35,948 nucleotides of DNA from Nitrospiraceae bacterium (GTDB taxonomy: Bacteria; Nitrospirota; Nitrospiria; Nitrospirales; Nitrospiraceae), in contig JBFWWG010000020.1 in the NCBI GenBank assembly GCA_050246315.1, positions 1 to 35,948 on the forward strand, in the 5' to 3' direction. The notes under the pieces are model-generated. The model ran no database searches. It saw nothing but the letters and a program-made list of their open reading frames with translations, and was not told the origin of the DNA. Shown here piece by piece: positions 1,532 to 35,876 of the stretch. Numbering within the stretch: position 1 is the stretch's first letter; each line of letters opens with the position of its first letter. A program made the translations under genes and the position numbers.

Positions 1532-1551
1532 TACTGTCAAAAATGACAGGC
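1532..1551. promoter_or_regulatory. Palindromic operator TACTGTCAAAAATGACAGGC (box 1), upstream of fba in the fba/pfp divergent region
   Basis: Perfect CTGTCA-N4-TGACAG. On the minus strand TATAAC (1510-1505) starts 22 nt beyond the box edge. Confidence 0.7.
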
Positions 1552-1823
1552 TTGCCTTTTGCTGGCTTCGCATTGTCGAATAGCGTTCCCTTATTGCCGT
1601 ATCCTCAGTCGGTGGATTGGAGCTGGAGCAAGAGAAGTGCCATGATTTGCCCCGCCTAGATCCGGCTGTGTGGCTCTTGTGGTGAGGCAGCATCGTAGTG
1701 AGGCAACATAGGCTGTGTGCCAGAAACAATCAGGTAAGCGTCGTTCTCTGTGGCGGTTTGCAACAGGACCATCGATAGTGATGTCCCAATAGGTCGCAAC
1801 AATGAAAACAAGGAGTAGGCACA

Positions 1824-3080
1824 ATGACGGAGACAGTCGCCATATTGGTCGGCGGGGGGCCGGCCCCCGGTATCAATGGTGTGATCAGCGCTGCCACGAT
1901 TCGATGTCTGGTGGAGGGCTGGAAGGTCCTCGGCATCGAGCAGGGTTTCAAGTGGATCATGCAAGGCGATGTGAGTAAAGTCACGCCGCTGACCCTTGAA
2001 CAGGTCAGCCGGCTTCATTTTCGAGGCGGATCGGTCCTCAAGACGGCCCGAGCCAACCCAACTAAAAACCCGGCCCACCTGGCTCAAGTGTTGCGGAGTC
2101 TGGAGCGGCTCGGCGTGACGGGACTGATCACGATCGGCGGGGATGACACCTGCTTCTCCGCGCTTTCACTGGAACGGGCCGCCCAAGGCCGCCTGCGCGT
2201 CGTTCACGTGCCTAAGACCATCGACAACGATCTCGATCTTCCGCAAGGAGTCCCCACCTTCGGATTTCAGACCGCCAGGCACCTGGGGACCTATGCGGTC
2301 GAAAGCATCCTTGAGGATGCGCGCACGACCGGCCGCTGGTTTTTCGTCGTGACCATGGGACGCAAAGCTGGCCATCTTGCGTTGGGCATCGGCAAAGCCG
2401 CCGGAGCGACGCTCACGGTGATTCCGGAAGAGTTTACGGAACGACCCGTGAGGCTGGCAAAGGTGGCAGATATTCTCGCAGGCGCGATCATCAAACGGCT
2501 GAGCCAGGGCAGAGAGGACGGGGTGGCCGTCATCGCCGAGGGCGTCGCGGAGATCATGAACCCTGACGATCTCAGCGCGTTGTCATCCGTCGCTCGCGAC
2601 GAACACGGCCATGTCGAACTGGCCGATCTCGACCTGGGGCGAGCGCTAAAAGAAGAGGTCCTCAAACGGTTGGCGCCCTACGGTCTCGCCCCGACCATCA
2701 GGCTCAAGGATCTGGGATTCGAATTGCGATGCGCGGATCCCATCCCGTTCGATATGGAATATTGTCGCGATCTGGGCTGCTGTGCCGCAGAGTTTTTGAT
2801 CGCAGGCCGTACGGGAGCGATGGTGTCGATCGTCAACGGAGGGTCATCGCCAATCCCGTTCAGCACGATTCTCGATCCGGCCACGCAGCGGACGCGAGTT
2901 CGAATGGTGGATGTGGCCGCCGAGTCCTATCGGCTCGCCCGCCGCTACATGATCCGATTGGACAAGAGCGATTTCGAAGAGAGCGAGCGGCTCATCAAAT
3001 GTGCTGCGGTGGTCGGTCACACTCCCGAGGCCTTCCGAGAACGATTTTCGCTCGTCGTTGAGCATGAACCGTCTTGGTGA
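1824..3080 (+). CDS. pfp: 6-phosphofructokinase, probably pyrophosphate-dependent
   Basis: GGGPAPG, IGGDDT, PKTIDND, MGR motifs. GGDD plus Lys in PKTIDND is the PPi-type signature. AAGGAG RBS. Confidence 0.9.
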   Translation: MTETVAILVGGGPAPGINGVISAATIRCLVEGWKVLGIEQGFKWIMQGDVSKVTPLTLEQVSRLHFRGGSVLKTARANPTKNPAHLAQVLRSLERLGVTGLITIGGDDTCFSALSLERAAQGRLRVVHVPKTIDNDLDLPQGVPTFGFQTARHLGTYAVESILEDARTTGRWFFVVTMGRKAGHLALGIGKAAGATLTVIPEEFTERPVRLAKVADILAGAIIKRLSQGREDGVAVIAEGVAEIMNPDDLSALSSVARDEHGHVELADLDLGRALKEEVLKRLAPYGLAPTIRLKDLGFELRCADPIPFDMEYCRDLGCCAAEFLIAGRTGAMVSIVNGGSSPIPFSTILDPATQRTRVRMVDVAAESYRLARRYMIRLDKSDFEESERLIKCAAVVGHTPEAFRERFSLVVEHEPSW

Positions 3081-4101
3081 ACGACTCCCGATCTTCCAAG
3101 GCTGCCGGTTCGCCCTCGTCGTCGTCTTGGTCTCGATAGGCCTGTCCCTTTTCGCCTCGCCGGCGAAGGCGGAGTGGAGGGTCAACGGGATGGCCATTCT
3201 CTTCTGGACGGACGACATCGGTATTTTTTCCGCCACTCGACGCTTGTCGCGCGACGGCGATCCGACCCAGCCGGCGCTCGACTCCCGCCTGACCGACAAA
3301 GGCTCGTCTTTCGGATTAGACCCGCAACTGACGGTCTCCAATACGGTCCATAACCGGCTTGGAAAACTGGAACTGAGCGCCCGAGGCCAAGGTTTTATCT
3401 TCACGGAGGACTCTCGCTTCAACCAGGGCATGCTCCGGCTCCAAGCCATTCAGGCGTTTTCCTCCGAGACGCGACTGCGGTTGCGATACGAGTATATGCC
3501 GAATCAGTTTCTGGGCGATAACGAGGACCGGCGACCCGGAGAGCTCGGTCTTGCGGAGGAAATCCTCACGAGCAGTATCTGGTCCGCCCGAATCGAACAA
3601 CGCCTCACTCCCGATCTGGACGTGATGTTGCTGGGGCGATTCGGCACGCGCCGGTACAACGATGCCTTTGCGGAGCGGGATACCAACTTCTGGACCATCG
3701 GACCGCATGTGGACTGGCGGGTGTCGAGGCGCGTGAAACTCGGGTTTGGCTACCACTTCGAGCAGGGTCTGGCCGATGGTCGCAACCAGCCGCAGTTCGA
3801 AGACGACGTGTCCTACATCAACCACTATCTGACGACCGAGGTGGACATTGAATTGACGGAGCGGTGGTCCCTTCAGATGGCTGCGCACTACGAGCGCAAT
3901 ATCTGGACGAGCACGATCGTGGGAGATGAACGCAACGGCGCGCACGAGACGATCGTGCAAGGAGAACTCATTCTCGTTCGCCAGGTCACGGAACGGGTTC
4001 AGGCCTTTGCCGGCTTTCAGCGCTCAAGCCGGAAACAGAGCTTCGAGACCGACGGGGTCAAGAATACGAACGTGGGCATCGGCATCTCGGCGACGTTCTA
4101 G
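3064..4101 (+). CDS. Predicted outer-membrane beta-barrel protein
   Basis: Signal peptide ending SPAKA, amphipathic beta-strand pattern, C-terminal GIGISATF (terminal Phe). The start overlaps the 3' end of pfp; exact start uncertain. Confidence 0.75.
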   Translation: MNRLGERLPIFQGCRFALVVVLVSIGLSLFASPAKAEWRVNGMAILFWTDDIGIFSATRRLSRDGDPTQPALDSRLTDKGSSFGLDPQLTVSNTVHNRLGKLELSARGQGFIFTEDSRFNQGMLRLQAIQAFSSETRLRLRYEYMPNQFLGDNEDRRPGELGLAEEILTSSIWSARIEQRLTPDLDVMLLGRFGTRRYNDAFAERDTNFWTIGPHVDWRVSRRVKLGFGYHFEQGLADGRNQPQFEDDVSYINHYLTTEVDIELTERWSLQMAAHYERNIWTSTIVGDERNGAHETIVQGELILVRQVTERVQAFAGFQRSSRKQSFETDGVKNTNVGIGISATF

Positions 4102-4286
4102 TCCGCATTATTCATGAACGTTTCTACTGCAATTGCGGATTCGCTGCTGCGACAAGCCTGGCCAGTCGAAGGGATTTCTCCGGCGGCCAATGAGCGCAGA
4201 GGAATTGAAATACGGACAGCGGGTCTCTCCGCCGAGGATGGTCGTATCGAAGGTGCAACGTCACGAAGCGTCGTGGATAATGAGGG
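4102..4286. mobile_element. MITE-like element, family F1 (TIR about CCCGCATTATTCATGA), degenerate copy
   Basis: Left end TCCGCATTATTCATGA follows CTAG (which contains the upstream gene's stop codon). Right end TCGTGGATAATGAGGG precedes CTAA. The first ~85 bp closely match 31569-31654. Confidence 0.75.
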
Positions 4287-4302
4287 CTAACTTTCTCCGC
4301 CG

Positions 4303-4332
4303 TTGACCGAGACGACGGAGGGATGCTACCTT
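4303..4332 (+). promoter_or_regulatory. Putative sigma70-type promoter of atpG
   Basis: TTGACC (4303-4308), 18-bp spacer, extended -10 TGcTACCTT (4324-4332). Confidence 0.45.
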
Positions 4333-4397
4333 TGCTGCCTCAGCGCCGTGCGAACGAGGAGATCCACCGGATCTCTGCAACCTTGTAAAAGGATCCC

Positions 4398-6048: not shown

Positions 6049-6063
6049 ACGAATCTCCACAAG

Positions 6064-6287: not shown

Positions 6288-7760
6288 TTACTGTTGCGCC
6301 ACCTTTGAAGCAGGAGCGGATTCGTACGGACCGGCGGGCGACCAGCCTCCGCCTAAGGCCTTATAGAGTTGGACGACCGACACCAGTTGCGTCCGGCGAG
6401 TCCTCGCCAGCGACAACTCGGCATCGAACAGGGTCCTCTGCGCGGTGAGCACGTCGAGATAACTGGCTCGGCCGCCCTGGTAACGAAGGTCGGCCATTTC
6501 GAGCGCCGATCGAAGCGATTTGACCTGCGCTTCCTGCGCCTCCCGTTGCTCGCGCGACTTTTGCACGGCGATCAGCGCGTCTTCGACTTCCTTGAAGGCC
6601 GTCACGATGGCCTTCTCATATTGCAACGACGCCTGCTTGGTTCGCGCTTCCGCCACGGTCACCTGATACCCGAGCGACGTAGCGTTGAGCAGCGGCCCGG
6701 CGACGGAAGCCCCGGCGAATTGCGTGAACGCGACGCCCGGCGCGAACGCATTGATCTGCGGATTGGCGACGCCCAAGGCGCCTGTGAGCGATAGTTGAGG
6801 AAACCGTGATGCCTGAGCCACCCCAATGGTGGCGGTGGCCGCCGTCAAATCCTGTTCCGCTTTCAGGATGTCTGGCCGGCGCTGTAGCAAATCAGAGGGG
6901 AGTCCGGCCGGCACCTGCGGCGGCATGACCTGTCCGGTCAACGCGATCCCCCGTGGAACTTGGGCGGGCTTCCGTCCCAGCAGGAGGCTGATCTGGTTTT
7001 CCTTCTGAACTTCCTGCCGTTCTAAATCAGCGAGCTGCGCGGCCGCGTTGGCGCGCTCGGCTTCGAAACGGTCCAAATCGAGCTTCGGGATTACTCCCTG
7101 CTCCAATTTCACGCGCGAGATTCTGACGGTATCATCCCACGCCTTCAGCGTCCGCTTAGTGATCTCGACTTGGAGGTCCAACTGCCGAAGGTCGAAGTAG
7201 GCCTCGGCGACATTGCTGACGAGACCCAGAATGACCGCCCGCTGCGCTTCTTGTCGTGAGAGGAGTTGGGCCCTGGCGGCCTCGATCGATCGGCGAATCT
7301 TCCCCCAGATATCCACTTCCCACTTGAGGCCCGCGAAGGCGTTCTGATTCGAGAGCGTCGCTCCGTCTGCGGCCAGCCCGGGGATGAACACCCCACCTCC
7401 TCCTGGAGACGGAATGCCGACGGCATTCCGGTTCGCGTTATAGATGAAGGCCTGACCGCCGTAGTCCAATGACGGAGCGAGATCGAATCGTGAAATCACG
7501 AGTTGGGCTTGGAATTCCTCGACCGATGCCGCAGCCGTTCGGACATCCTGGTTTTCTTCGAGGGCGGTTCGGATGAGCCGTTGGAGTTCGGGGTCCTTCA
7601 GCAGGTCCCACCAAGGCAGGTTCGCGATGGATTCAGAGGTCGCCGGCGCCAGGCGCCAGGCATCGCCCGTCGGAGTGTCCGGACGGGCATAATCCGGACC
7701 CATGCTACAGGCGGTCATGAGCGGGAGCGCAGCGAGCGCGGCGAGCCGGCGACAAATCAT
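6288..7760 (-). CDS. RND efflux outer-membrane factor lipoprotein (OprM/NodT family)
   Basis: Lipobox MTAC, WW...DPEL, LPSDLLQRRPDI, LYKALGGGW. TGATG coupling to the RND gene. Confidence 0.95.
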   Translation of the reverse strand: MICRRLAALAALPLMTACSMGPDYARPDTPTGDAWRLAPATSESIANLPWWDLLKDPELQRLIRTALEENQDVRTAAASVEEFQAQLVISRFDLAPSLDYGGQAFIYNANRNAVGIPSPGGGGVFIPGLAADGATLSNQNAFAGLKWEVDIWGKIRRSIEAARAQLLSRQEAQRAVILGLVSNVAEAYFDLRQLDLQVEITKRTLKAWDDTVRISRVKLEQGVIPKLDLDRFEAERANAAAQLADLERQEVQKENQISLLLGRKPAQVPRGIALTGQVMPPQVPAGLPSDLLQRRPDILKAEQDLTAATATIGVAQASRFPQLSLTGALGVANPQINAFAPGVAFTQFAGASVAGPLLNATSLGYQVTVAEARTKQASLQYEKAIVTAFKEVEDALIAVQKSREQREAQEAQVKSLRSALEMADLRYQGGRASYLDVLTAQRTLFDAELSLARTRRTQLVSVVQLYKALGGGWSPAGPYESAPASKVAQQ

Positions 7761-10700
7761 CAATGTTCTCCCTCCAAACGTGCGTGCGCCGGAAGCGGTT
7801 CCGGTCGCGGTGCGACCTGCGGTGAGCGGCCGTCGCCGGCGGAATTCAGCGCACCCGGCGGCGGGGCGCCTGGCTTCGGGTGGTCGTGCCGATGGGACAA
7901 TTTCTCGACGACATAGAACGTCACGGGGATCAGAAAGATCGCGATAAGACTGGCGGTGAGCATGCCCCCCAGTACCGTGATGCCGAGCATGATGCGCGAG
8001 GCCGCTCCGGCGCCCGATGAGAAGACGAGCGGGAGAAGGCCGAAGATGAAGGCAAACGCCGTCATCAGAATCGGGCGCAGCCGCAGCCGCGCGCCGGCCA
8101 GCGCGGCGTCGCTGATCGATTTGCCCTTTTCGTATTCCACTTTGGCAAATTCCACGATCAGGATGGCGTTTTTAGCGGCCAACCCGATGAGCATGACCAA
8201 CCCGATCTGAGTAAAGACGTTGTTTTCGAGCCCGAGGAGCCAGAGCGCCCCGAAGGCTCCGAAAACCGCGATGGGTGTCCCCAACAACACGCTGAAGGGA
8301 AGGCTCCAACTCTCGTACTGGGCCGCCAAAATCAAGAACACGAACAGAAGCGAAAAGCCGAAGATGACACTGGCCGGTACGCCTTCGGCTGCGACCTTTT
8401 CTTGAAACGACATGCCCAGGTAGTCGTACCCCATTTCGCGCGGCATCGTGTCGGCAAAGACCTCTTCGAGCGCCGCCATGGCTTGCCCGGAGCTGTAGCC
8501 AGGAGCCGCGGAGACCAGTAACTGTGCCGAACGATATTCGTTGAACCGCATCGTGAACTCCGGGCCGTAGATGGTCTCCATGGTCACCAGCGTTGAAAGC
8601 GGCACCATGGCGCCGTCCGCATTGCGGACGTAGAACTGGCCGACATTTTCGGCCTTGGTCCGGAACTCGCCTTCCGATTGGAGGTACACCTGCCACACTC
8701 GGCCGAATCGGTTGAAGTAGTTCACCATCGACCCCCCCATGAAGGCCTGGAGAGTCTGATAGACGTCGCCTAGATTCACCCCCTGCTTGAGCACCTTCTC
8801 GCGATCGACCCGTGCGAAAACCTGGGGGACGCTGGGGATGAATGTGGTGTTCACCGAGGCGATTTCAGGACGCTTCCGAACGGCTTCCATGAACCGTTCG
8901 GTCTGTTCCGCGAGAAACCCGACATCCTTGCCGGACCGGTCTTCGAGAACAAACGTCACGCCTCCGGATGTCCCGACGCCGGGGATTGCCGGCGGCGGAA
9001 ACGCAAAGGCTACCGCCTCCGGCAATTGCTTCAGCTCCCGGTTGAGATGTTGAAAGATGGCCCGGAGCCCCTCTTCGGGTTTGGTCCGTTCATGCCAGGG
9101 AGCGAGGGTTACGAAAAAGAACGCGTTATAGGTCGTGCTGGCCGTGCTGAGAAGACTGAACCCGACCACGGCGGACGCAAACTGGACACCCGGGGATTCT
9201 TTCAGGATCTGTTCTATCTTCTTGGCCACCTGGTCGGTGCGTTGGAGCGATGAGGCGACCGGGAGCTGGACGTTGAGATAGAGGTAGCCTTGATCCTCAA
9301 TCGGAAGAAATCCGCTCGGGAGACGTGCGCCCAACAGGCCTGCGAGGACGGAGACGAGGACGAGAAAGACCATGGACCGCCCAGCCTTCCGAATGAAATA
9401 GCCGCAGAGCCCGACATAGCCGTCCGTCGCCCGCCCAAACCATCGGTTGAACCAATTGAAAAACAGGCCCATCGGGCCTCGCGTCTCTTGCCGTGGGCGA
9501 AGCAACAGCGCCGATAAGGCAGGGCTCAGCGTGAGTGCGTTGAAGGCGGAGATGACGACGGAGACGGCGATCGTGACGGCGAACTGCTGATAGAGCCGTC
9601 CGGTAATGCCGGGGATGAAGGCAGTCGGTACAAAGACCGCCGCCAGGATCAGCGCGATGGCCACCACCGGTCCGGAGACCTCCTCCATCGCCTTCAGGCT
9701 GGCCTCCTTGGGAGAGAGGCCGTGCTCAATGTGATGCTCGACCGCTTCGACGACCACGATAGCGTCATCCACCACGAGACCGATCGCGAGCACCAGTCCA
9801 AACAGCGACAGCGTGTTGATCGAGAAGCCGAGCAGCGGGAAGACCGTGAAGGCGCCGACCAGCGAGACCGGGACGGCCAGCATGGGAATCAAGGTCGCCC
9901 GCCATCCTTGCAAGAACACGAAGACGACGATGATCACGAGGACCAGCGCTTCCCAGAGCGTGGTCACGATTTCCTTAATCCCCTCGCGGACCGCCTGGGT
10001 CGTATCCAACGAGACGACATAGTCGAGATCCCCCGGGAACCGCTCCTTCATCTCCTCCATGAGCTTTGTCGCGCGATCCATCGTGTCGATGGCATTGGAG
10101 CCCGGGAGCTGATAGATCGCAATGAGGGCGGCCGGCCGGCCGTTCATCCGGCTGATCATGTTGTACATCTGCGCGCCCAGCTCGATCCTGGCGACGTCCT
10201 TGAGCCGCACGAGAGACCCGTCGGCATTCGCGCGAATGACGATTTGTCCGAACTGCCCCTCGTCCTGCAGGCGCCCCTGCGCTCGAACGCTATAGGTAAA
10301 CTCCTGGCCCTGCGGCACCGGCTCGGCGCCGATCTGCCCGGCGGGGTTCACCGTGTTCTGTTTCTTGATCGCGTCGACGATCTCCGGCACCGTGATGCCG
10401 AGTTTGGCCAGGACGTCGGGCCGTACCCAGAACCGCATCGCATACTGCCCCGCTCCGAAAACCTGTACCTGGCCGACGCCCGGGACGCGGGTCATGGGAT
10501 CGTTGATGTTCACGTAGGCATAGTTGGAGAGCCAGATGTTGTCATACGTACCCTTGGGCGAGTACAGGGAAAACAGGGCGAGAGGACTGGTCGTCGCCTT
10601 CTTGACCGTGACGCCGAAGTTCTTGACCTCGGGCGGCAACTGGGATTCCGCTTGCGCATAGCGCATCTGTGCGAGGATCTGATCGTCGTTCGGCCTGGTC

Positions 10701-10990
10701 TTGATGTCGAAGTCCACACGGAGCGTCATCTGGCCGTTATTGGCGTTCACCGAGTACATGTAGATCATGTTGTCCACCCCGCTCACTTGCTGCTCGATGG
10801 GAGTGGCGACCGACTGCTCCACCGTGACGGCGTCGGCGCCGACATAGGTGGCGGTCAACATGATTTCCGGCGGAGCGATGTTGGGGAACTGAGCGATCGG
10901 GAGTTGGACCAGCGCGATGATGCCGACGATCGTCATGACGATGGAGATCACCATCGCGACGATCGGTCGGTTGATGAAAAACTTCGCCAT
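7760..10990 (-). CDS. RND efflux permease, HAE1 (AcrB/MexF-like)
   Basis: MAKFFINRP, GLVVDDAIVVVE, AKNAILIVEFA, RLRPILMT; 1076 aa. Confidence 0.97.
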   Translation of the reverse strand: MAKFFINRPIVAMVISIVMTIVGIIALVQLPIAQFPNIAPPEIMLTATYVGADAVTVEQSVATPIEQQVSGVDNMIYMYSVNANNGQMTLRVDFDIKTRPNDDQILAQMRYAQAESQLPPEVKNFGVTVKKATTSPLALFSLYSPKGTYDNIWLSNYAYVNINDPMTRVPGVGQVQVFGAGQYAMRFWVRPDVLAKLGITVPEIVDAIKKQNTVNPAGQIGAEPVPQGQEFTYSVRAQGRLQDEGQFGQIVIRANADGSLVRLKDVARIELGAQMYNMISRMNGRPAALIAIYQLPGSNAIDTMDRATKLMEEMKERFPGDLDYVVSLDTTQAVREGIKEIVTTLWEALVLVIIVVFVFLQGWRATLIPMLAVPVSLVGAFTVFPLLGFSINTLSLFGLVLAIGLVVDDAIVVVEAVEHHIEHGLSPKEASLKAMEEVSGPVVAIALILAAVFVPTAFIPGITGRLYQQFAVTIAVSVVISAFNALTLSPALSALLLRPRQETRGPMGLFFNWFNRWFGRATDGYVGLCGYFIRKAGRSMVFLVLVSVLAGLLGARLPSGFLPIEDQGYLYLNVQLPVASSLQRTDQVAKKIEQILKESPGVQFASAVVGFSLLSTASTTYNAFFFVTLAPWHERTKPEEGLRAIFQHLNRELKQLPEAVAFAFPPPAIPGVGTSGGVTFVLEDRSGKDVGFLAEQTERFMEAVRKRPEIASVNTTFIPSVPQVFARVDREKVLKQGVNLGDVYQTLQAFMGGSMVNYFNRFGRVWQVYLQSEGEFRTKAENVGQFYVRNADGAMVPLSTLVTMETIYGPEFTMRFNEYRSAQLLVSAAPGYSSGQAMAALEEVFADTMPREMGYDYLGMSFQEKVAAEGVPASVIFGFSLLFVFLILAAQYESWSLPFSVLLGTPIAVFGAFGALWLLGLENNVFTQIGLVMLIGLAAKNAILIVEFAKVEYEKGKSISDAALAGARLRLRPILMTAFAFIFGLLPLVFSSGAGAASRIMLGITVLGGMLTASLIAIFLIPVTFYVVEKLSHRHDHPKPGAPPPGALNSAGDGRSPQVAPRPEPLPAHARLEGEH

Positions 10991-12168
10991 CAGCCTGCGG
11001 TCTTGTCAGGAGATCCTTCGACCGGCTTGGGGTTCACGGTCATCCCGGCCTTGATCTTTTGGAAGCCTTCGACCACGACCTGCTCGCCGGGCTTCAGTCC
11101 GTGATCGATGACCCACCGGCCCCCGACACGTTCTCCGACTTTGACTGGGCGGACCTCGACCTTCTTCTCCGCATCGACCACGGCGATCTGATACTGGCCC
11201 TGCAACTCAGCCACGGCCCGCTGCGGGACCAACAGTGCACCCGCCTTCGTCTTCGTGATCGCCCGAACGCGGGCAAACAGCCCGGGACGGAGCAGGTTGC
11301 CGGGATTCGGGAAGACCGCCGCAACACGGATCGTGCCGGTCTTGACATCCACCTGACGGTCCGCGAGCAGAAAGTTGCCCTTGTGCGGGTAGACCGATCC
11401 GTCGGCCAGGATCAATTCGAGTTGGTCGTCGCGCTGTTCATCTGCGTGTTCGTAGCGCGCCTGCACCCTCTCGGCTCCCCGCAGGTATTCTTGTTCGCTG
11501 ACCGGAAAGTAGACGCGGATCGGATCGACGGTCGAAAGCGACGCGAGCGCGCCGGTGCTGGGACCGACCAGATCGCCGATCTGCGCCTTGGCGATCCCGA
11601 TAATGCCGTCGATGGGCGCCTCGATTTTGGTGTAGCCGAGGTTCAACTGGGCTTGCTGCACCGAGGCACGGGCGGAGGCAAGCGAGCCTTTGGCCGAGGC
11701 GTGGGCCTGAATCGAGTCGTCTAATTCCTTCTGGCTGATCGCCTTGGCTTTCGCAAGCGGGGTGTCGCGTTTGACGTCCATCTCCGTCTTCGCCAGTTGC
11801 GCTTGGGCTTGACTGAGTTGGCCTTGCGCCTCCGCCAAGGCGGTCTGGAAGGGTCGCGGATCGATCTCGAACAGCAGGGTGCCTTTTCGCACGAACGCGC
11901 CTTCCTTGAAGTTTCGACTGATGAGGTAGCCGGTCACCTTGGCCTCGATCGTGGCATTGACCAGGCCATCCGTGGTGCCGATCCACTCCGAATGGATCGG
12001 GAGGTCTTGCTCCACGACCGTAGTTACCAAGACCTCCGGGGCGGTCTGCGCGGCGGTCTGAGCCTCCTTCTTACAGCCGGAGGCGGCAGCCATGATTGCA
12101 AGGAAGATGAACAGGAGTGACAGCGGTGCGGTCATAGGGGCCATGATCCTAAAGGAAGTCGTTAGCAT
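10990..12168 (-). CDS. RND periplasmic adaptor (membrane fusion protein)
   Basis: Lipobox ASGC, LFEIDPRPF, YTKIEAPIDG, LRPGLF, LLVPQRAV. TGATG coupling to the permease. Start may be 12168 or 12144. Confidence 0.93.
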   Translation of the reverse strand: MLTTSFRIMAPMTAPLSLLFIFLAIMAAASGCKKEAQTAAQTAPEVLVTTVVEQDLPIHSEWIGTTDGLVNATIEAKVTGYLISRNFKEGAFVRKGTLLFEIDPRPFQTALAEAQGQLSQAQAQLAKTEMDVKRDTPLAKAKAISQKELDDSIQAHASAKGSLASARASVQQAQLNLGYTKIEAPIDGIIGIAKAQIGDLVGPSTGALASLSTVDPIRVYFPVSEQEYLRGAERVQARYEHADEQRDDQLELILADGSVYPHKGNFLLADRQVDVKTGTIRVAAVFPNPGNLLRPGLFARVRAITKTKAGALLVPQRAVAELQGQYQIAVVDAEKKVEVRPVKVGERVGGRWVIDHGLKPGEQVVVEGFQKIKAGMTVNPKPVEGSPDKTAG

Positions 12169-12349
12169 AAACAACTTGCGGTCTTGAAAGGAAGAGGGTG
12201 TGCGGCGCCGCGGAGGCATTCCTTCCTGGTGGACAAGCCCTACCCGACCCTGCGCTCATGATGTGGGACCGGTTGAGATGGGGCCGAGCGGATGCTCCCT
12301 GTTGATGGCAACTCGACAAAGCCCGCGCTCGCCAACTCGCCAATATGGG

Positions 12350-12369
12350 AACTGTCAGAATTGACAGGT
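12350..12369. promoter_or_regulatory. Palindromic operator AACTGTCAGAATTGACAGGT (box 2), upstream of the RND operon
   Basis: Perfect CTGTCA-N4-TGACAG about 180 bp upstream of the adaptor gene. Confidence 0.7.
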
Positions 12370-26385: not shown

Positions 26386-26465
26386 TCCTCGTTGAGGTCA
26401 ACCTCCTCCGCTATGCCTACCACCCACGGTCGGATCCCGCCGGTGGATGGAGCTGTAAATCGTGA
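26382..26465 (+). pseudogene. vapC: Truncated VapC (first ~18 codons only)
   Basis: ATGA overlap with the antitoxin; MILVEVNLLRYAYHPRS resembles the PIN N-terminus MILVDxNLLxYA; stop after 27 codons. Confidence 0.8.
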
Positions 26466-26470
26466 CAGAG
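26451..26470. promoter_or_regulatory. Palindromic operator AGCTGTAAATCGTGACAGAG (box 3)
   Basis: One mismatch to CTGTCA-N4-TGACAG; lies just past the vapC break point; target gene unclear. Confidence 0.5.
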
Positions 26471-26837: not shown

Positions 26838-26864
26838 GCCCGACCTGATAGATAACCGCACGCG

Positions 26865-27292: not shown

Positions 27293-27880
27293 CTACTCGA
27301 TTGAATAGGGTTGCGTCCGTAACACGGACACGGTCGCCGTGCCGGAAATTCCTGCATCGGTCAGCACGTAGGTGGAGAACCCCTTTTTGAGCAGATCGGT
27401 CGTGCCTCCACTGCCGGCAGCGCCCACGTCGCCGGCCTTGGCCGCGGCTTCCGCTTCAACGCCGGCATGCCACTTCCCATTGGCCAGGTCTCGCAATTTA
27501 TCGAGATCTTGGAAAACCAGCACGATCTTTTCCGCCCGGCCACCCCACCCCATCCCGAATTGCAGCTCAGGAATCCTCAGGTACGTCCGCTTTCCGGTTG
27601 CCTTCTCGACTGCGACGCCGGCGCCGCTCGCCCACCCCATCGTGGGGATCTTGATGGTGTCTTGTTCCGCCACCAGGTACCCGACGGATTCCTTTAACTC
27701 TTGCTCGGCTTTCGGCTGTTCTTTGACCAGGCGCGCCAGGGTGTCCTGTTCGAGCTTATCGAAGTAGGCCAACTTTTTCTCTTTGCTCCCCACCAGACCG
27801 CCCGCACAGGCCCCGAGCACGCCGATCAGGACAATGATCAATGCCGGTTTACCGAGTGCCATTCTTCTTGAAGCGCGCAT
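27293..27880 (-). CDS. Ysc84/SYLF-like lipoprotein
   Basis: Lipobox LGAC; GYLV, SGAGVA, FGMGWGG...IVLVF, GVEAEAAAKAG, YVLTDAGI pattern. Confidence 0.8.
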   Translation of the reverse strand: MRASRRMALGKPALIIVLIGVLGACAGGLVGSKEKKLAYFDKLEQDTLARLVKEQPKAEQELKESVGYLVAEQDTIKIPTMGWASGAGVAVEKATGKRTYLRIPELQFGMGWGGRAEKIVLVFQDLDKLRDLANGKWHAGVEAEAAAKAGDVGAAGSGGTTDLLKKGFSTYVLTDAGISGTATVSVLRTQPYSIE

Positions 27881-27947: not shown

Positions 27948-27967
27948 AACTGTTAAAAGTGACAGGT
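27948..27967. promoter_or_regulatory. Palindromic operator AACTGTTAAAAGTGACAGGT (box 4)
   Basis: One mismatch to consensus; 68 bp upstream of the 27880 start. Confidence 0.68.
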
Positions 27968-29562: not shown

Positions 29563-31260
29563 CTAAGAGGCATGATCGCCGTCCGAGGTTCCGGACGGTG
29601 TTCGCGCGCCTTCTCGCCGGCCGTCCGCCAGCGTGGAGGCGACGGCCGGGGCCGTAAACCACTTCTCTCTCGGCACAATTTTGGGCTCCGGAGGATCACC
29701 TTCATAGGCGGGCGTCATGATCTGCACACCGTGTTCGTTGAACAGATCAAGAATATTCCGGTGTAACTCGGTCAGCGTGTGGGACGTTTGCTGAGTGTCG
29801 GCCGTGTAGGCATTCACCTCGTACGTCACGGCAAAATCACCGAGCTCTTTCTGGAGCACGTACGGCGACGGGCGCTTCAGTAAGCCGGGCGTCCGATCGG
29901 CCGCCTGCAGCAAGATGGCCTCGACCTGACGCCAGGGCGTCTCGTAACCGATCCCGACCGTCGTATGCAGGATCAAGCCCTCCTTCTCGGCCAGGGAGCT
30001 GTAGTTGATCACGTGCGTGTTCAGAATCATGGAGTTGGGCACCACGATCTCCTCGTTCTTCAGGGATCGGAGATGCGTGACCAGCAGGCGCATTTCAGTC
30101 ACGTTTCCGACCAATTCGTCGATCTTCACCAGGTCCCCGACTTTGAACGCGCGGCGATAGATCATGGTGTAGCCCGCGATGATATTGGAGATCGCCGAGG
30201 AAGATCCGAGCGAGAGAATGATGCCGAGGAAGATCGAGACGCCCTTGAACGCCTCGGATTCGGAACCCGGGACGTAGGGATAGGCCACGACCACGGTGAA
30301 GGCAATGGTACCCAAACGCAAGAGGCGAAAGGTCGGCAGGGCCCATTCCCGATCGAACCCGGATATCGAGACCGTGCCCCGCGCAATCCCGGCGAAGAAG
30401 TGATGCAGCATCTGGAGGGCGTACCGCACCACAATGATGAGAATCGCGAGAAAAACCAGATTCGGCAGCGCGGCCAGGATCGCCGTGGCCATCTGACTGA
30501 TGGGATTGAACAGAATGGCAAAGAGCCGGACCGAAATGGGCTTGGTCCAGGGAAAGAGCGCAAGAACGTATTGAACGTACGACATGCCGACGATCGACAG
30601 GAGGAGGACATAGACGGCGTGTTCGACCAATTGAAACCCGGCCCACAGCCGGTCCGCCTGAACGATCTGTAGCGATTGAAATCGCAAACCCTGAAGGCGA
30701 GCCTTGACCCGGCGCTGGCTGAATTGTCTTAGCCGTTGAAACGTCCATCGAATTCCCCACACCAGACCAGCAACGAACAATGTGGCGGTGGCTGCATGAC
30801 CGGCGCCGATCAGCAGCACCCGCAAGGTTCGATCGTGCCGATAACTGATGATGGCCTCCGCAATGCGAGTTCGGTTAAGGAGGGCGAGCGACTGGCGTGA
30901 CACATGTTCGAGTGCCGCGTCCGCATCGAAGACGTTCATAACCAATTGGTTGTCGGCATAAATCTCGGAACGCCCCTCGATCTCCGCGGCACGAAGCGAC
31001 TCCACTGAGACCGTCTCATCGGCGGCGAGTGCGATGATGCGGTCGGCGATGACCTGCGCCCGCCGCTCGGCGGGATAGGCGGAGGTGCCGCGCACCCGGA
31101 AGAGTATGTTTCCGTCGATCGTGACCGATGCGCTGGGCCGCTCCAATTGGGCGGACGGTTCATTCTTCTCAGCCTCGGCCTCAATAGGAATCCACAGCGC
31201 CGCTACGATCAGCAGCAACCAGCAGACCAGCCTGCTTTGCTTCCAGCACCTCCGCGTCAC
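29563..31260 (-). CDS. MscS-family mechanosensitive channel (second, distinct subfamily)
   Basis: FKGVSIFLGIILSLGSSSAISNIIAG, FKVGDLV, VPNS, IGYETPWRQVE, GVQIMTPAY. AAGGAGG RBS before GTG at 31260. Confidence 0.92.
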   Translation of the reverse strand: MTRRCWKQSRLVCWLLLIVAALWIPIEAEAEKNEPSAQLERPSASVTIDGNILFRVRGTSAYPAERRAQVIADRIIALAADETVSVESLRAAEIEGRSEIYADNQLVMNVFDADAALEHVSRQSLALLNRTRIAEAIISYRHDRTLRVLLIGAGHAATATLFVAGLVWGIRWTFQRLRQFSQRRVKARLQGLRFQSLQIVQADRLWAGFQLVEHAVYVLLLSIVGMSYVQYVLALFPWTKPISVRLFAILFNPISQMATAILAALPNLVFLAILIIVVRYALQMLHHFFAGIARGTVSISGFDREWALPTFRLLRLGTIAFTVVVAYPYVPGSESEAFKGVSIFLGIILSLGSSSAISNIIAGYTMIYRRAFKVGDLVKIDELVGNVTEMRLLVTHLRSLKNEEIVVPNSMILNTHVINYSSLAEKEGLILHTTVGIGYETPWRQVEAILLQAADRTPGLLKRPSPYVLQKELGDFAVTYEVNAYTADTQQTSHTLTELHRNILDLFNEHGVQIMTPAYEGDPPEPKIVPREKWFTAPAVASTLADGRREGARTPSGTSDGDHAS

Positions 31261-31371
31261 TCGTTCCTCCTTGTGGTGCTCTGTGCCTGGATCATTTGAG
31301 AAACCCATCGCCATGGCGCATAGAGAACTCCACTGAGATGAGGTCGTGTACCATGTCGCTAAGCGGGCCGG

Positions 31372-31391
31372 AACTGTCAATAGTGACAAAG
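31372..31391. promoter_or_regulatory. Palindromic operator AACTGTCAATAGTGACAAAG (box 5)
   Basis: One mismatch to consensus. Minus-strand TGgTACACG with the hexamer 22 nt beyond the box edge. Confidence 0.68.
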
Positions 31392-31435
31392 CCTCGACAA
31401 CGTGCGACGTGTTCGTCACTCGCAAGGCCTCCTAG

Positions 31436-31564: not shown

Positions 31565-31568
31565 CTAG

Positions 31569-31930: not shown

Positions 31931-31947
31931 CTAGCTCACCTGTCGTC

Positions 31948-33165
31948 CTAATCCCACTTCACCGCATCCCGCTCGTGGCATGGAACGGGCTCCCGACGAT
32001 AGACATTCAACAGGCCGTAATGGTCGGAGGCCGGGAGGCCCAGACTGTCGGTCTCCTGCCCAAAGAGCGTTTGTGTCAGACAGTAGCCCGGCAAGAAGGA
32101 GTGCTCGATCAGATAGTCGATCTGCCTCGGTCGTCGCATTTCGGTCCGATAGGCTTCCGTGATGGATGCTTGCACCGCCGGCTCTTCCTTTGCAGTCAGA
32201 TCGACCAGGATGGAGGGAAATGGCGACGTCTCCGGATCGGGAATCAGCCGATTGTGCAGTGGATCTGCCGTATAGCGTCGGCCGTTGTGGTTCGCGATCC
32301 GCGAGGTATCGAGATAGCGCAGGAGTCTGACTTCCTCGTATTCGGGATGACCTTCCTCAAAATTCAGATCGCCTCCGAAAATGATCCCCGTATAGGACCC
32401 CTCCCGCTTGAGCTTGTTCAAGGTCCGGGTCAGCCGATTGAGTTCGCCGATGCGGCGCAATCTGGACTGCTCGATCTCCCATCGCAGGTCGGCGTACCGG
32501 CCGAACGTCTCCCTGTGATCGGATAATCGGGTCAGGAATGGAGCGCCGGCTTCGAATCCCGAGTGGAGATGCGTCGAGGCCACCAGATACTTCCCCGTCG
32601 TTCCCGGAATGGCAATTTCGCCGATCAGTCCATATCGCAACTCCTCCAGTTGAAAGCCGGAACTCGTGCGGCATCGGCCGAAATCTCCGCTTAATTTCAA
32701 CCCGGCAAGTTTTTGAAGGCGCAGCGGCGTCTTTGCCAGTATCACCAAGCCGTTGTTCAGATCCGTGAACAAGGCCCGATTCTCGCTCATGCGCATCCCA
32801 CAGGCATCGACTTGATGAATCTCGGCGTAGTCGAGCCCGGCTTCCTTCAAGGCGTGCACATAGCGTTCCGCCCGCGCAGGAAGCGGGTTCACTTCCTGAA
32901 GGAACACGAGGTCCGGCGCGACGCGGGTGAGCTGCAGGATCAGCAATTGAAAGCGGCGTTCGTTTTCCTCGATCGATTCGCCGGCCGTCACGCCGAACTT
33001 TCCGGTCAGCAGACCATGCAGCGCGTTGTACGTCACGACGCGAAAGGCGTCGGGAGCGGCGGAGCCCTCTTCGAGAGGCGGCACGACTTCCGATTGCTGC
33101 GCCGGTCCTGCGCAAGACAACAGTCCCCAGGCGACCAATGCGATCCAGAGCCGGCGAATTGTCAC
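31948..33165 (-). CDS. Endonuclease/exonuclease/phosphatase (EEP) family lipoprotein
   Basis: Lipobox LLSC; VVTYN, DLVFLQEV, STHL, GGDLN, RQIDY, ASDHY. Confidence 0.88.
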   Translation of the reverse strand: MTIRRLWIALVAWGLLSCAGPAQQSEVVPPLEEGSAAPDAFRVVTYNALHGLLTGKFGVTAGESIEENERRFQLLILQLTRVAPDLVFLQEVNPLPARAERYVHALKEAGLDYAEIHQVDACGMRMSENRALFTDLNNGLVILAKTPLRLQKLAGLKLSGDFGRCRTSSGFQLEELRYGLIGEIAIPGTTGKYLVASTHLHSGFEAGAPFLTRLSDHRETFGRYADLRWEIEQSRLRRIGELNRLTRTLNKLKREGSYTGIIFGGDLNFEEGHPEYEEVRLLRYLDTSRIANHNGRRYTADPLHNRLIPDPETSPFPSILVDLTAKEEPAVQASITEAYRTEMRRPRQIDYLIEHSFLPGYCLTQTLFGQETDSLGLPASDHYGLLNVYRREPVPCHERDAVKWD

Positions 33166-33881
33166 GGTTCATCCTTCGAGAGTCGGTTCAGCATGGCTTG
33201 CAGGCGGTCCGAATACCAGTGTCGGACGCGACCCGGGTGTTCCAGGATGTCCTGTGAGCGAAATGGGCCTCCATAATAGAGCGCGTGCGCTTGGTCATTC
33301 GAGAACACCAAGGTCCCACTCAGCTTCACCCCGGCAAAAGCGCCTTTCACCCTTGCAAATGAAATGACGTCCGCACTCAGCGTGGGAGTGGTTGACCCGC
33401 TCACGGCTCTCCCAACCGGCCCCGCTGCCAACGTGATCCCCGTTCCGAGAAAGAACCGGCTGTGGACAAATGATTCGGCGCTCCGCTTCGTCATCGCCAA
33501 CGCGACCACCTCCGCTTGCGCAATCCCGATCTGAAGTCCGACCCCGGCGCTCACCAGGGTGAGGAAGGCCGGATCACTCCACCGCCCTGTTTGCTCATCT
33601 CTCACCAGCACGATCGCCTTTCCGTACGCAGCGCCGAGAAGGTAGCCGAGACGAACCATGTCAGGCACAATAACGATCGCTTGCGCCTCCTTCGCATATC
33701 GGCGAAACCAATCCATGTCGGGGTGTTCCTCGAATCGAGCGAACGTCAAACGCGATTCATCGACGAGCTCTTGCACGTCCGCCAGGTCAAGGGCGCTGCT
33801 CTGGTCTGGCGCGACGACGAACAGAGCCGCGACTATCAGGCAAGTCAGAAACGGTGCTCGGTGAGGCCCGGCGATGATCAT
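33162..33881 (-). CDS. Secreted lipid-binding SYLF (Ysc84) domain protein
   Basis: AQAIVIVP, GYLLGAAYGKAIV, WSDPAF, GVGLQIG, AAGPVGR, SFARVKGAFAGV.LSG, YYG. GTGA overlap with the EEP gene. Confidence 0.88.
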   Translation of the reverse strand: MIIAGPHRAPFLTCLIVAALFVVAPDQSSALDLADVQELVDESRLTFARFEEHPDMDWFRRYAKEAQAIVIVPDMVRLGYLLGAAYGKAIVLVRDEQTGRWSDPAFLTLVSAGVGLQIGIAQAEVVALAMTKRSAESFVHSRFFLGTGITLAAGPVGRAVSGSTTPTLSADVISFARVKGAFAGVKLSGTLVFSNDQAHALYYGGPFRSQDILEHPGRVRHWYSDRLQAMLNRLSKDEP

Positions 33882-34094
33882 CAGGTGTGCGGGGGGCTGA
33901 TCGGCTGTGGCGTCATCGGGGGATGATGCCGCCCGAGACAGGGCGAAGCTCCGGGAGAGTGGGGGGATTCCCTTGCATCTGGGAAATGGCGCGGTTGTGT
34001 TGCACGGACCTCCCACTCGGTGATGACCGAGTCCGGGAATCAGTTCGGCGAGGTACGGTTCATCTCAACCGGCTCGGTCCGCCCTATCGATTCC

Positions 34095-34634
34095 TCAGTC
34101 GATCAGTGGGATTTCCCGCGCGAGCTCATATTTCAAGAGCGATCGGATCTTGTTTTCGATCTGAAGGTATCGGGCGACCTTAGCCTCCGGCAACACGTGG
34201 GCGAATTGCCGGGCATAGGATTGCTTGATCGCCACCTCGGCCGCCTCCACGGCCAGTACCTCATCGAGCAGGTTCGACGCTGTGCCGTCCGGCACGGGGC
34301 CTTTTTTAAAGGCTTCGGCATAGTCCGTGATGGTCCGACCGAGCCGCCGGTCAATCAGGTCCAGATTCTGCTGATAGGAGTCATACAGGGGCCAGAATTT
34401 TCCGGCCTCCTCGTCCGTCAGCTCCATGTTGTTTGACACCAACGATCTCTTGTCCGCCTTGATCTTGTTCAGCAGCACCTCGAAATCGGTGGCGATGGAA
34501 CTCGTCGTACCGGCGGTAGGAGACGCGGCCGAGGTGGTTGCCGTGCTCGAGGATGTGCTCCGGGACGGCTCCGACGCACAGGCCTGTACGAACAGCAACC
34601 CTACGACCGCGATCTCCCATCCGATGTGTCTCAC
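34095..34634 (-). CDS. Helical periplasmic lipoprotein, paralog 3 of tandem triplet
   Basis: Lipobox VQAC, Ser/Thr/Ala linker, KADKR..V..NMELTDEEA..FWPLYD.YQ...KVARYLQIE.KIR. Confidence 0.85.
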   Translation of the reverse strand: MRHIGWEIAVVGLLFVQACASEPSRSTSSSTATTSAASPTAGTTSSIATDFEVLLNKIKADKRSLVSNNMELTDEEAGKFWPLYDSYQQNLDLIDRRLGRTITDYAEAFKKGPVPDGTASNLLDEVLAVEAAEVAIKQSYARQFAHVLPEAKVARYLQIENKIRSLLKYELAREIPLID

Positions 34635-34678
34635 TGACTGTCTCCTCTGTCCATCGCTCTGTCGGATCCTCTCATGGC

Positions 34679-35230
34679 TCAGTACACCAGCGGAATCTCC
34701 CGAGCCAATTCAAACTTCAGCAATGACCGGATCTTGGTTTCGATCTGAAGGTACCGCGCGACTTTGGCATCCGGCAGCACGCGGCTGAATTGCTGAGCGA
34801 AGTCTTTCTTCAACATGACTTCGGCATCTTCCAGATTCAGCATTTCGTCGAGCAACTTCGAGGCCGTGCTGTCCGGCAACGGACCCTTCTTGTAGGCCTC
34901 GGCATACTCCATGATTGTCCCGCCGAGCTGGTTGTTGAGATCCGTCAGTTTCTTCTGATACCCGTCATACAACGGCCAAAAGTTTTGCGCTTCTGCGTCC
35001 GTCAGCTCCATATTGCTGGCCACCAACAGTTTCTTATCCGCCTTGATCTTGTTCATCAGGATCTCGACATTGGTTGCGGACGGACTCTTTTGGACGGCTG
35101 CGGTGGAGGTGGCTCGGGGAGTCGCCGGAGCGGCCGCCGTGGCGGATGAGGTGCTCCGGGAGGGTTCCGACGCGCAGGCTTGGACGAACAAACAACCGAC
35201 AACCAGCATTCCCAGTTCTAGTCTTCGCAT
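34679..35230 (-). CDS. Helical periplasmic lipoprotein, paralog 2 of tandem triplet
   Basis: Lipobox VQAC, Ala/Thr/Ser linker, same core; AAGGAG RBS. Confidence 0.85.
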   Translation of the reverse strand: MRRLELGMLVVGCLFVQACASEPSRSTSSATAAAPATPRATSTAAVQKSPSATNVEILMNKIKADKKLLVASNMELTDAEAQNFWPLYDGYQKKLTDLNNQLGGTIMEYAEAYKKGPLPDSTASKLLDEMLNLEDAEVMLKKDFAQQFSRVLPDAKVARYLQIETKIRSLLKFELAREIPLVY

Positions 35231-35286
35231 GGACACACTCCTTTATCGCATCTTGTTGGTCCTGTCATGTCGCGGATGGTCGTGAT

Positions 35287-35763
35287 CTAATAGACGAGCG
35301 GAATTTGTTGCGCGAGGTCGGCTTTGATGATCGCACGGATTTTGGTTTCCATCTGAATGTACCGAGCCGCCTTGGATGCCGGCAGGACTTTCCTGAGTTT
35401 GTCCGCAGTGGCTCGTTTCAGATGCGTTTCGGATTCTTCCACAGCCAACACTTCATTCATCAGCCTCTTGGCGGTGTCGTTCTGCAGCGCGCCCTTGTTA
35501 AAGGCTTCGGCATAGTCCCCGATCGTCCGACCGAGCCGGTTGTTGATCTTATCGAGTTCCGACTGATAGTCGTCGTAGAGGGGCCAGAAGGCCTTGGCCT
35601 CGGCATCGGTGAGATCCATATTGGTGGCGACCAGAAGCTTCTTGTCCGCCATTAGCTTCTCCTTGACGATTTCCATATTCGAGGCGTTGGCACCACTCTG
35701 TGCCAAAACCGGAGTGGTCCAGCCTACCAGGACAAGCAGGCAGATGACGTAGAAGGATTTCAT
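35287..35763 (-). CDS. Helical periplasmic protein (SPase I signal), paralog 1 of tandem triplet
   Basis: MKSFYV...PVLA-QS signal, same NMDLTDAEA..FWPLYD core; AAGGAG RBS. Confidence 0.85.
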   Translation of the reverse strand: MKSFYVICLLVLVGWTTPVLAQSGANASNMEIVKEKLMADKKLLVATNMDLTDAEAKAFWPLYDDYQSELDKINNRLGRTIGDYAEAFNKGALQNDTAKRLMNEVLAVEESETHLKRATADKLRKVLPASKAARYIQMETKIRAIIKADLAQQIPLVY

Positions 35764-35856
35764 GACCGAGCTCTCCTTTTTCTGAAGGTTGATGGATCTC
35801 TGTACGCTACCGTACGAGCGGTCCCTATTCTTTAACACCAAACAGGGGGAGGTTCC

Positions 35857-35876
35857 AACTGCCAAAGGTGACAGCT
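35857..35876. promoter_or_regulatory. Palindromic operator AACTGCCAAAGGTGACAGCT (box 6)
   Basis: One mismatch to consensus; 94 bp upstream of the triplet. Minus-strand TGtTAAAGA with the hexamer 23 nt beyond the box edge. Confidence 0.68.

What the first reader, a model, noticed from the sequence alone, without database searches (positions are those of the whole stretch)
1532..35876. Six copies of a lux/las-box-like palindrome define a candidate (quorum-sensing?) regulon across the window
Seen: CTGTCA-N4-TGACAG with at most one mismatch at 1532, 12350, 26451, 27948, 31372 and 35857 (20-mer starts), all outside intact genes. A rough uniform-composition expectation is 37/4^12 x 36 kb, about 0.08 hits. 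Five copies lie ~70-180 bp upstream of minus-strand genes: fba-ackA, the RND pump, the SYLF lipoprotein, MscS and the helical triplet. Boxes 1, 5 and 6 have a TA-starting -10-like hexamer 22-23 nt beyond the box edge (TATAAC, TGgTACACG, TGtTAAAGA), and box 4 has TGgT at the same offset, putting the box centre near -43. Known: AHL-responsive LuxR-family activators bind 20-bp NNCT-N12-AGNN palindromes centred near -42.5. Inference: one activator, not encoded in this window, co-regulates fermentative carbon metabolism, efflux, mechanosensitive channels and envelope lipoproteins, e.g. a biofilm or high-density programme. My scan was by eye, so further copies may exist.
Basis: partly seen in the sequence, partly recalled or inferred. 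Interest (0 to 1): 0.82.

Follow-up and report, generated by a model that had tools for sequence, protein, structure and literature searches.

The report
Two-component regulator box, not quorum sensing
Six copies of a short DNA palindrome in this Nitrospira-type nitrifier are real and recur beside the same kind of two-component regulator in several bacterial phyla, so they are likely the sites where that unnamed regulator, not a quorum-sensing protein, would switch on a clustered set of probably stress-related genes.

Summary
All six boxes are present (shuffles give 0.12). The window is one contig; the adjoining contig encodes, 0.8-3 kb past its end, a PAS histidine kinase, a NarL-type response regulator (recognition helix TVAFHKY), a seventh perfect box and a receiver-only protein. 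Among 151 family genomes, 25 are box-rich; 24 of them carry this regulator and the 25th has it deleted, whereas only 2 of the other 126 show its signature. AHL synthase (8/25 vs 43/126) and the LuxR solo do not track the box; this genome has no luxI or LexA hit. Around the same helix in Acidobacteria, Planctomycetes, Verrucomicrobia and Proteobacteria the top de novo dyad is the same motif. A -10 element sits 22 nt past the box, putting its centre at -43.5, as for E. coli NarL at yeaR. Targets: the receiver-only protein, sugar-storage and fermentative enzymes, MscS, RND pumps, envelope proteins, some acid-resistance-type enzymes. The signal is unknown and binding is untested. In this lineage the system appears to be decaying (shortened kinase, damaged promoters, regulator-less strains). 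Verdict: an apparently undescribed, cross-phylum NarL-family regulon; quorum sensing is rejected.

The parts
1532..1551 (.). Box 1 (perfect core); drives the minus-strand run fba, ackA, xfp, glgX, glgP, NapA-like oxidoreductase, cytochrome c, ppk2, pgi that continues on contig C3
1505..1510 (-). -10-like hexamer TATAAC at +22 from box 1
362..1429 (-). Class I fructose-bisphosphate aldolase, first gene behind box 1
12350..12369 (.). Box 2 (perfect core), upstream of the RND pump; no -10 at +22, 8 extra bases in the spacer relative to sister genome G307
6288..12219 (-). RND efflux operon (membrane fusion protein, AcrB-type permease, outer-membrane factor)
26451..26470 (.). Box 3 (one mismatch), orphan: lies between two plus-strand antitoxin-like genes, about 530 bp upstream of the 25075-25920 lipoprotein-like gene
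27948..27967 (.). Box 4 (one mismatch); extended -10 reads TG-g-TGCCCA here but TG-g-TACCCA in G307
27293..27880 (-).
31372..31391 (.). Box 5 (one mismatch), with TG-g-TACACG at +19 to +27 (hexamer 31345-31350, minus strand)
29563..31312 (-). MscS-family channel behind box 5 (start uncertain)
35857..35876 (.). Box 6 (one mismatch), with TAAAGA at +23; its orthologous promoter keeps the box in regulator-bearing genomes
31948..35763 (-). Genes behind box 6: three paralogous exported proteins of no Pfam family, a Ysc84-domain protein and an endonuclease/exonuclease/phosphatase-family protein
35822..35948 (.). 127-nt overlap with contig C25, which continues with the receiver-only gene (C25:337-819), box 7 (C25:892-911), the NarL-type regulator (C25:929-1582) and the PAS-HisKA_3 kinase (C25:1590-3053), all on the minus strand and outside the window

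Best explanation
The palindrome is likely the binding site of the NarL-family response regulator encoded just past the window's end, which, once phosphorylated by its neighbouring PAS histidine kinase, would bind as a dimer at about -43.5 and switch on a clustered, probably stress-related gene set. Shown: the boxes, their non-coding position, the fixed -10 spacing, the kinase-regulator-box-receiver cassette, and the co-occurrence of box and regulator across genomes and phyla. Inferred: direct binding, activation, and a feedback role (phosphate sink or shuttle) for the box-preceded receiver-only protein. Least certain: the signal. The targets (glycogen and glucoside turnover, phosphoketolase-acetate kinase, ppk2, MscS, RND pumps, LEA/BON/Ysc84 envelope proteins, alternative Rieske-cytochrome b, amino-acid deamidase/decarboxylase) and the varied kinase input domains fit best a general stress or energy-limitation programme (my odds about 0.45, against 0.25 low oxygen, 0.2 acid, 0.1 other). 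In this lineage the circuit looks partly decayed.
For: Cassette 0.8-3 kb from box 6. 22 of 25 box-rich genomes carry the TVA[F/Y]HKY signature, 2 more carry a TIAFHKY orthologue beside a box, and the last (G307) has the regulator deleted; 2 of 126 box-poor genomes show the signature. Contrasts inside genera: g7 13 of 18 have both and 5 neither; g3 1 of 17; g100 1 of 4. A box lies within 1.5 kb of 20 of 24 signature loci but 0 of 32 paralogue loci, whose helix reads TV/IEFHK-x or similar; the positions that differ align with NarL's base-reading K188 and K192. De novo, TGTCA-N4-TGACA is the top dyad in 123 loci found only by the helix pattern (28 loci vs 0.27 expected); 48 of 80 long loci hold a box vs mean 0.84 for shuffled matrices. 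TA at +22 on the gene side in 26 of 41 oriented sites vs 4 on the other side, i.e. centre -43.5, the NarL position at yeaR (PMC10853779, passages). The promoter of the box-6 gene keeps the box in 15 of 20 regulator-bearing vs 3 of 20 other genomes. In single-contig genome G270 all 7 exact boxes lie within 45 kb around the regulator.
Against: No binding or expression data; RNA runs were contigs only and show neither starts nor levels. 32 of 80 long cross-phylum loci have no box at score 17 (28 have none at 15), with no substitute dyad, and 3 of 10 outside genomes searched had no exact site. Regulator and targets sit on one island, so co-occurrence partly reflects co-inheritance, and genomes are related. 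Box-bearing islands sometimes hold other regulators (Crp-family in 7 of 80 loci, a LuxR-solo-like gene in G256 and G285). G307 lacks the regulator yet keeps boxes 2 and 6 unchanged and most cargo genes intact. Three of the six window boxes lack a good -10 or target. Start sites are inferred from motifs.
Confidence: 0.82

Rival explanations
1. The box is a lux/las box read by an AHL-binding LuxR (quorum sensing).
For: 20-bp dyad with CT..AG ends near -43; Nitrospira has a working LuxI/LuxR pair (PMC8553950, passages); this genome has one LuxR solo with a marginal autoinducer-domain score (24.3 bits, cut-off 23).
Against: No luxI hit here; luxI in 8 of 25 box-rich vs 43 of 126 other genomes; the solo in 10 of 25 vs 28 of 126, and in 17 of 17 g3 genomes of which 1 is box-rich; two luxI loci lack the box and one carries ACCTGG-N8-CCAGGT instead; the published box scores 5.6 on the matrix, real sites 17-30.
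Confidence: 0.03
2. The box is read by another regulator that travels with, or lies outside, the island (a Crp/Fnr protein or another LuxR-type protein); the NarL-type gene is only a co-inherited target.
For: Regulator genes themselves often have a box upstream; Crp-family genes occur in 7 of 80 cross-phylum loci; a LuxR-solo-like gene lies in two Nitrospira islands.
Against: No such gene in this genome's island; the island solo has no orthologue here; the N6 spacing of Crp/CooA sites is not enriched; the motif follows one recognition helix across phyla whose neighbouring genes differ.
Confidence: 0.1
3. It is an SOS box (CTGT-N8-ACAG) bound by LexA.
For: The core contains CTGT-N8-ACAG, the enterobacterial LexA pattern (recalled).
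Against: No LexA DNA-binding domain found in a genome rated 100% complete while 10 of 14 controls ring; best score upstream of recA is -8; targets are not repair genes; the site lies upstream of the -10, as for an activator.
Confidence: 0.01
4. Same regulator and box, but a dedicated low-oxygen (DosR-like) or acid-resistance (EvgA-like) regulon rather than a general stress programme.
For: Low oxygen: xfp, ackA, pta, ppk2, NapA-like enzyme, NirK with Rieske-cytochrome b, a USP. Acid: a box directly before glutaminase, aspartate-alanine antiporter, aspartate decarboxylase and asparaginase in G285, plus DUF308, DUF202 and carbonic anhydrase targets elsewhere.
Against: Kinase inputs vary (PAS only, MASE1, periplasmic binding domain, Y_Y_Y propeller, GAF), which argues against one dedicated signal; the acid genes were seen in single genomes only.
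Confidence: 0.4

Closest known systems
E. coli NarX/NarL at the yeaR promoter (PMC10853779, passages read)
   Same: HisKA_3 kinase with a receiver + LuxR-type HTH regulator; 16-bp dyad core; site centred at -43.5; base-reading positions of helix 9 align with the subfamily's signature.
   Different: Helix reads TVAFHKY instead of TVKVHVK; site CTGTCA-N4-TGACAG instead of the 7-2-7 TAACCAATAAATGGTA type; cytoplasmic PAS kinase here; extra receiver-only gene; scores far below the NarL model cut-off (102 vs 250 bits).
Nitrospira NspI/NspR1 quorum-sensing pair (PMC8553950, passages read)
   Same: Same bacterial group, LuxR-type HTH, 20-bp palindrome beginning NNCTG.
   Different: AHL-binding protein next to luxI; box ACCTGGCGGTTCCGCCAGGT; distributed independently of this box.
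SsrB and MctS/MctR (best NCBIfam models); DosR, NreC and EvgA regulons (functions recalled, not read)
   Same: NarL-family two-component regulators; DosR and EvgA control clustered dormancy or acid-survival genes of partly similar kinds.
   Different: No model reaches its cut-off (SsrB 139/242, MctR 133/300, EvgA 78/251); their recalled sites differ from this one.
Alphaproteobacterial general stress response with single-domain receivers such as SdrG/MrrA (recalled)
   Same: Varied kinases converging on one output, with a receiver-only protein inside the regulon.
   Different: There the output is an ECF sigma factor released by PhyR; here it would be a DNA-binding activator at sigma-70-type promoters.

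Membership tests
AHL LuxI/LuxR regulon | AHL synthase in the genome | tested here: not met
   0 hits in G000; same search finds 51 of 151 family genomes
AHL LuxI/LuxR regulon | LuxR with an autoinducer-binding domain | tested here: inconclusive
   Genome search blank, but one solo scores 24.3 bits vs cut-off 23; its best NCBIfam model is EpsA, below cut-off
AHL LuxI/LuxR regulon | Box co-occurs with luxI or the LuxR solo | tested here: not met
   luxI 8/25 vs 43/126; solo 10/25 vs 28/126
AHL LuxI/LuxR regulon | luxI promoter carries the box | tested here: not met
   0 of 2 luxI loci from box-rich genomes, up to 2 mismatches; one has the NspR1-type box
LexA/SOS regulon | LexA present and box upstream of recA | tested here: not met
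NarL/FixJ-family two-component regulon | Receiver + GerE-type HTH regulator linked to the sites | tested here: met
   P0002, PF00072 + PF00196, adjacent to box 7; tracks the box across genomes
NarL/FixJ-family two-component regulon | HisKA_3 kinase partner with phosphorylation motifs | tested here: met
   P0001 PAS-PAS-HisKA_3-HATPase, H-box ARELHD; receiver DD/D/T/K residues present, read by eye
NarL/FixJ-family two-component regulon | Dyad site at an activator position (about -43.5) | tested here: met
   TA at +22 in 26 of 41 oriented sites; start sites inferred, not mapped
NarL/FixJ-family two-component regulon | Phosphorylation-dependent binding and activation | not testable with these tools
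   needs EMSA/DAP-seq and expression data
Named orthologue (NarL, NarP, SsrB, EvgA, UvrY, MctR) | Score above the curated NCBIfam cut-off | tested here: not met
   none of the 25 best models shown reaches its cut-off
Crp/Fnr (CooA-type TGTCA-N6-TGACA, recalled) | Six-base spacer between TGTCA half-sites and a linked Crp-family gene | tested here: not met
   only the N4 spacing gives exact hits; no Crp-family gene in this island

The most novel reading that the evidence does not exclude
An unrecognised general-stress circuit shared by Acidobacteria, Nitrospira, Planctomycetes, Verrucomicrobia and some Proteobacteria: many different sensor kinases feed one conserved recognition helix, one box and a box-controlled receiver-only phosphate sink, and the whole programme is gained and lost as an island, with natural regulator-deletion strains common in engineered nitrifying reactors.
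Probability: 0.35. Interest if true: 0.72.

Novelty: new member of a known kind. Interest (0 to 1): 0.52.

Why it matters
Gene regulation in Nitrospira and Acidobacteria, dominant nitrifiers and soil bacteria with few genetic tools, is poorly mapped. This gives a regulator-motif pair that can be read from sequence alone in about 830 stored genome stretches (estimate), ties dozens of proteins of unknown function to one programme, points to two helix positions that separate it from near-identical paralogues, and offers natural knockout strains for a direct test. It also warns that lux-box scans in Nitrospira can pick up a motif unrelated to quorum sensing.

Tried and rejected
Quorum sensing, SOS and Crp/CooA readings (see rivals). 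Whole-protein search with the regulator in 251 phylum genomes could not separate orthologues from paralogues; the helix pattern could. The genome-level autoinducer-domain search was blank but a direct scan showed a marginal hit, so 'no LuxR solo' was dropped. A single-sequence AlphaFold model of the regulator was poor (mean pLDDT 56) and was not used. RNA runs were contigs only, so no expression or start-site evidence was drawn. A search for an alternative dyad in 28 box-negative loci found nothing convincing. The idea that boxes decay quickly after regulator loss has weak support only (G307: 3 of 7 deleted with flanking DNA, 1 core change, 1 flank change, 2 unchanged). Paper searches for the motif or system gave no relevant hit (for NreC returned unrelated papers; demanded all terms, so they are narrow); subscription journals, RegPrecise-type databases and supplements were not seen. 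The scan's earlier notes held nothing on this locus, protein or motif orientation. The last planned script could not run; its checks were done, except the sequence at the deletion junction.
Full report
Observation. The six sites are in the window at the stated positions: two perfect, four with one mismatch. Dinucleotide shuffles give 0.12 on average and never more than one. In the 4.39-Mb genome only the four-base spacer yields exact matches (5; each other spacer from 0 to 10 yields 0). With a matrix rebuilt from 92 sites of other genomes, 13 distinct sites score 17 or more: 8 in a 92-kb stretch formed by contigs C3, C20 (the window) and C25, which overlap by 127 nt, 3 in the first 20 kb of C2, one before an extra Rieske-cytochrome b operon on C18 and one on C9. 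Close homologues of the local proteins are labelled Nitrospira or Nitrospiraceae.

The regulator. Just past the window's end, C25 carries on one strand a PAS-PAS-HisKA_3-HATPase kinase, a receiver + GerE-HTH regulator (P0002), a perfect seventh box, and a receiver-only protein, followed by box 6. P0002 is one of 15 GerE-type proteins in the genome and the only one with the helix TVAFHKY. It reaches no curated NCBIfam cut-off; its nearest solved relatives are VraR, DesR, NarL and EvgA.

Co-occurrence. In 151 genomes of the family, exact box counts are bimodal: 25 have 3-16, 16 have 1-2, 110 have none; the reversed control pattern gives 0 or 1. A DNA pattern for TVA[F/Y]HKY rings in 24 genomes, 22 of them box-rich. 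Two further box-rich genomes have a TIAFHKY orthologue next to a box. The last, G307, has the regulator deleted. The two signature-positive, box-poor genomes have 2 and 1 exact sites. The match holds inside genera (g7: 13 of 18 both, 5 neither; g3: 1 of 17; g100: 1 of 4), though kin are not independent. A box lies within 1.5 kb of 20 of 24 signature loci (score above 16) and of 0 of 32 paralogue loci (above 17; none reached 15). Most paralogues read TVEFHK[A/S/G/T]; the differing positions align without gaps to NarL K188 and K192, which contact bases (PMC10853779, passages). The promoter of the box-6 gene holds a box in 15 of 20 regulator-bearing genomes and 3 of 20 others; of those three, G198 in fact has the signature and the other two are 72% and 76% complete and were not searched further.

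Beyond Nitrospira. The helix pattern alone fetched 123 loci from 10 of 64 parts of the GTDB collection (about 830 stretches estimated), mostly Acidobacteriota, with Planctomycetota, Verrucomicrobiota, alpha- and gammaproteobacteria and others. An unbiased count of spaced inverted 5-mers put TGTCA-N4-TGACA first (28 loci, 0.27 expected). 48 of the 80 long loci have a box against a mean of 0.84 for 50 shuffled matrices; the other 32 do not, many of them Vicinamibacteria or unclassified Acidobacteriota. Exact sites per outside genome are few (0-6 in 10 genomes); in Granulicella sp. L46, 4 of 5 lie within about 15 kb around its two regulator genes.

Promoter anatomy. Of 122 hits in these loci, 2 fall inside called genes, which cover 76% of the DNA (my own gene caller, some loci overlap). 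In 70 oriented sites T and A peak at +22 and +23 past the box, T at +27, with TG enriched at +19/+20; in 41 island sites TA stands at +22 in 26 on the gene side and 4 on the other. Taking that T as -12 puts the box centre at -43.5, the position of NarL at yeaR. Start sites are inferred.

Quorum sensing and SOS. No luxI hit here; luxI occurs in 8 of 25 box-rich and 43 of 126 other genomes. One LuxR solo beside the flagellar motor genes has a marginal autoinducer domain; it occurs in 10 of 25 and 28 of 126. Two luxI loci from box-rich genomes lack the box; one carries ACCTGG-N8-CCAGGT, the form published for Nitrospira NspR1 (PMC8553950, passages), which scores 5.6 on the matrix. LexA was not found and recA has no site.

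Targets. The receiver-only gene and the regulator genes themselves are the most recurrent targets across phyla (128 box-plus-TA first genes listed; a receiver-only gene lies in 47 of 78 loci). In this genome box 1 heads a co-directional run of fba, ackA, xfp, glgX, glgP, a NapA-like oxidoreductase with a NapC-type cytochrome, ppk2 and pgi; other boxes precede two GH63 glucosidases with an amylase-like gene and glucose dehydrogenase, the RND pump, MscS, and Ysc84, LEA-2 and outer-membrane genes. Elsewhere: sulfatases, patatin, PqiAB, phosphoglucomutase, a USP, DUF892, NirK with Rieske-cytochrome b, and in G285 glutaminase, aspartate-alanine antiporter, aspartate decarboxylase and asparaginase (65 and 22 proteins scanned, chosen by hand). 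Kinases near the regulator share HisKA_3 but differ in input: PAS only, MASE1, periplasmic binding domain, Y_Y_Y propeller (26 of 29 locus proteins scanned were HisKA_3 or PAS kinase-type, 2 were sigma-54 activators, 1 had no family). I infer a conserved output module for general stress or energy limitation; low oxygen and acid remain open.

Decay in this lineage. The kinase lacks about 145 residues, spanning most of two PAS domains, relative to three 630-residue homologues; contigs of three runs cross the junction, so it is not an assembly error. A 1,380-bp deletion removing the regulator, box 7 and the kinase's ATPase end is the dominant form in runs X8 and X15 and a minor form in X1 and X3 and is fixed in G307, which also lacks fba with box 1 and the box-3 region but keeps most cargo intact. 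In the window, box 4's -10 has G where G307 has the conserved A, box 2's spacer has 8 extra bases, and box 3 is cut off from a target. In G270 and G201 an integrase-family gene and tRNA genes lie at one side of the box cluster, which fits, but does not prove, a mobile island.

Novelty. Searches of open full texts for the motif or system found nothing relevant (listings only); subscription papers, regulon databases and supplements were not seen. The architecture is a familiar kind; this subfamily, its site, its cross-phylum reach and its regulon appear undescribed. Shown: motif, position, geometry, linkage, co-occurrence, natural deletion. Inferred: binding, activation, feedback, signal. DosR, EvgA, NreC, CooA, LexA and SdrG/MrrA properties are recalled, not read here.

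Noticed in passing
G000:C25:540-1919 (L001), runs X1, X3, X8, X15; G307:C16:68968: A 1,380-bp deletion removes the response regulator, box 7 and the kinase's C-terminus; intact and deleted forms coexist in two runs, giving natural knockout strains.
   Followed up: partly
G000:C25:1590-3053: The kinase has an in-frame loss of about 145 residues that fuses the start of one PAS domain to the middle of the next.
   Followed up: partly
window 34095-35763: Three tandem paralogous exported proteins with no Pfam or NCBIfam family; relatives in 49 of 151 family genomes, including all 25 box-rich ones.
   Followed up: partly
window 14389-14892, 20067-20203, 31433-31935, 4097-4190, 6062-6165; L001:3210-3345: Several short intergenic sequences that recur many times in the sister genome G307; they look like miniature mobile or REP-type repeats.
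   Followed up: no
window 12459-13037 and 15809-16744: An IS1380-like transposase fragment next to box 2 and a Y1 (IS200/RAYT-like) transposase.
   Followed up: no
window 17953-18629, 26137-27201, 28618-29330: VapB/PIN and DUF433 toxin-antitoxin modules, some partial, inserted on the strand opposite to the box-driven genes; similar modules recur in related islands.
   Followed up: no
window 1824-5294: A PPi-dependent phosphofructokinase divergent from fba and a lone extra ATP synthase gamma gene, also present in the islands of G210 and G256.
   Followed up: no
G000:C18:53158 (L039); G256 L211: A box with a -10 element precedes an extra Rieske + cytochrome b/c operon; in G256 the same operon includes a copper nitrite reductase.
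   Followed up: partly
G000:C4:133914-134723 (L036): A LuxR solo with a weak autoinducer domain beside motA/motB-like genes, found in 38 of 151 family genomes, many without luxI.
   Followed up: partly
G000:C3:8434-11448 (L002): A NapA-like molybdopterin oxidoreductase with a NapC/NrfH-type cytochrome in a nitrite-oxidiser's island; broken in G307.
   Followed up: no
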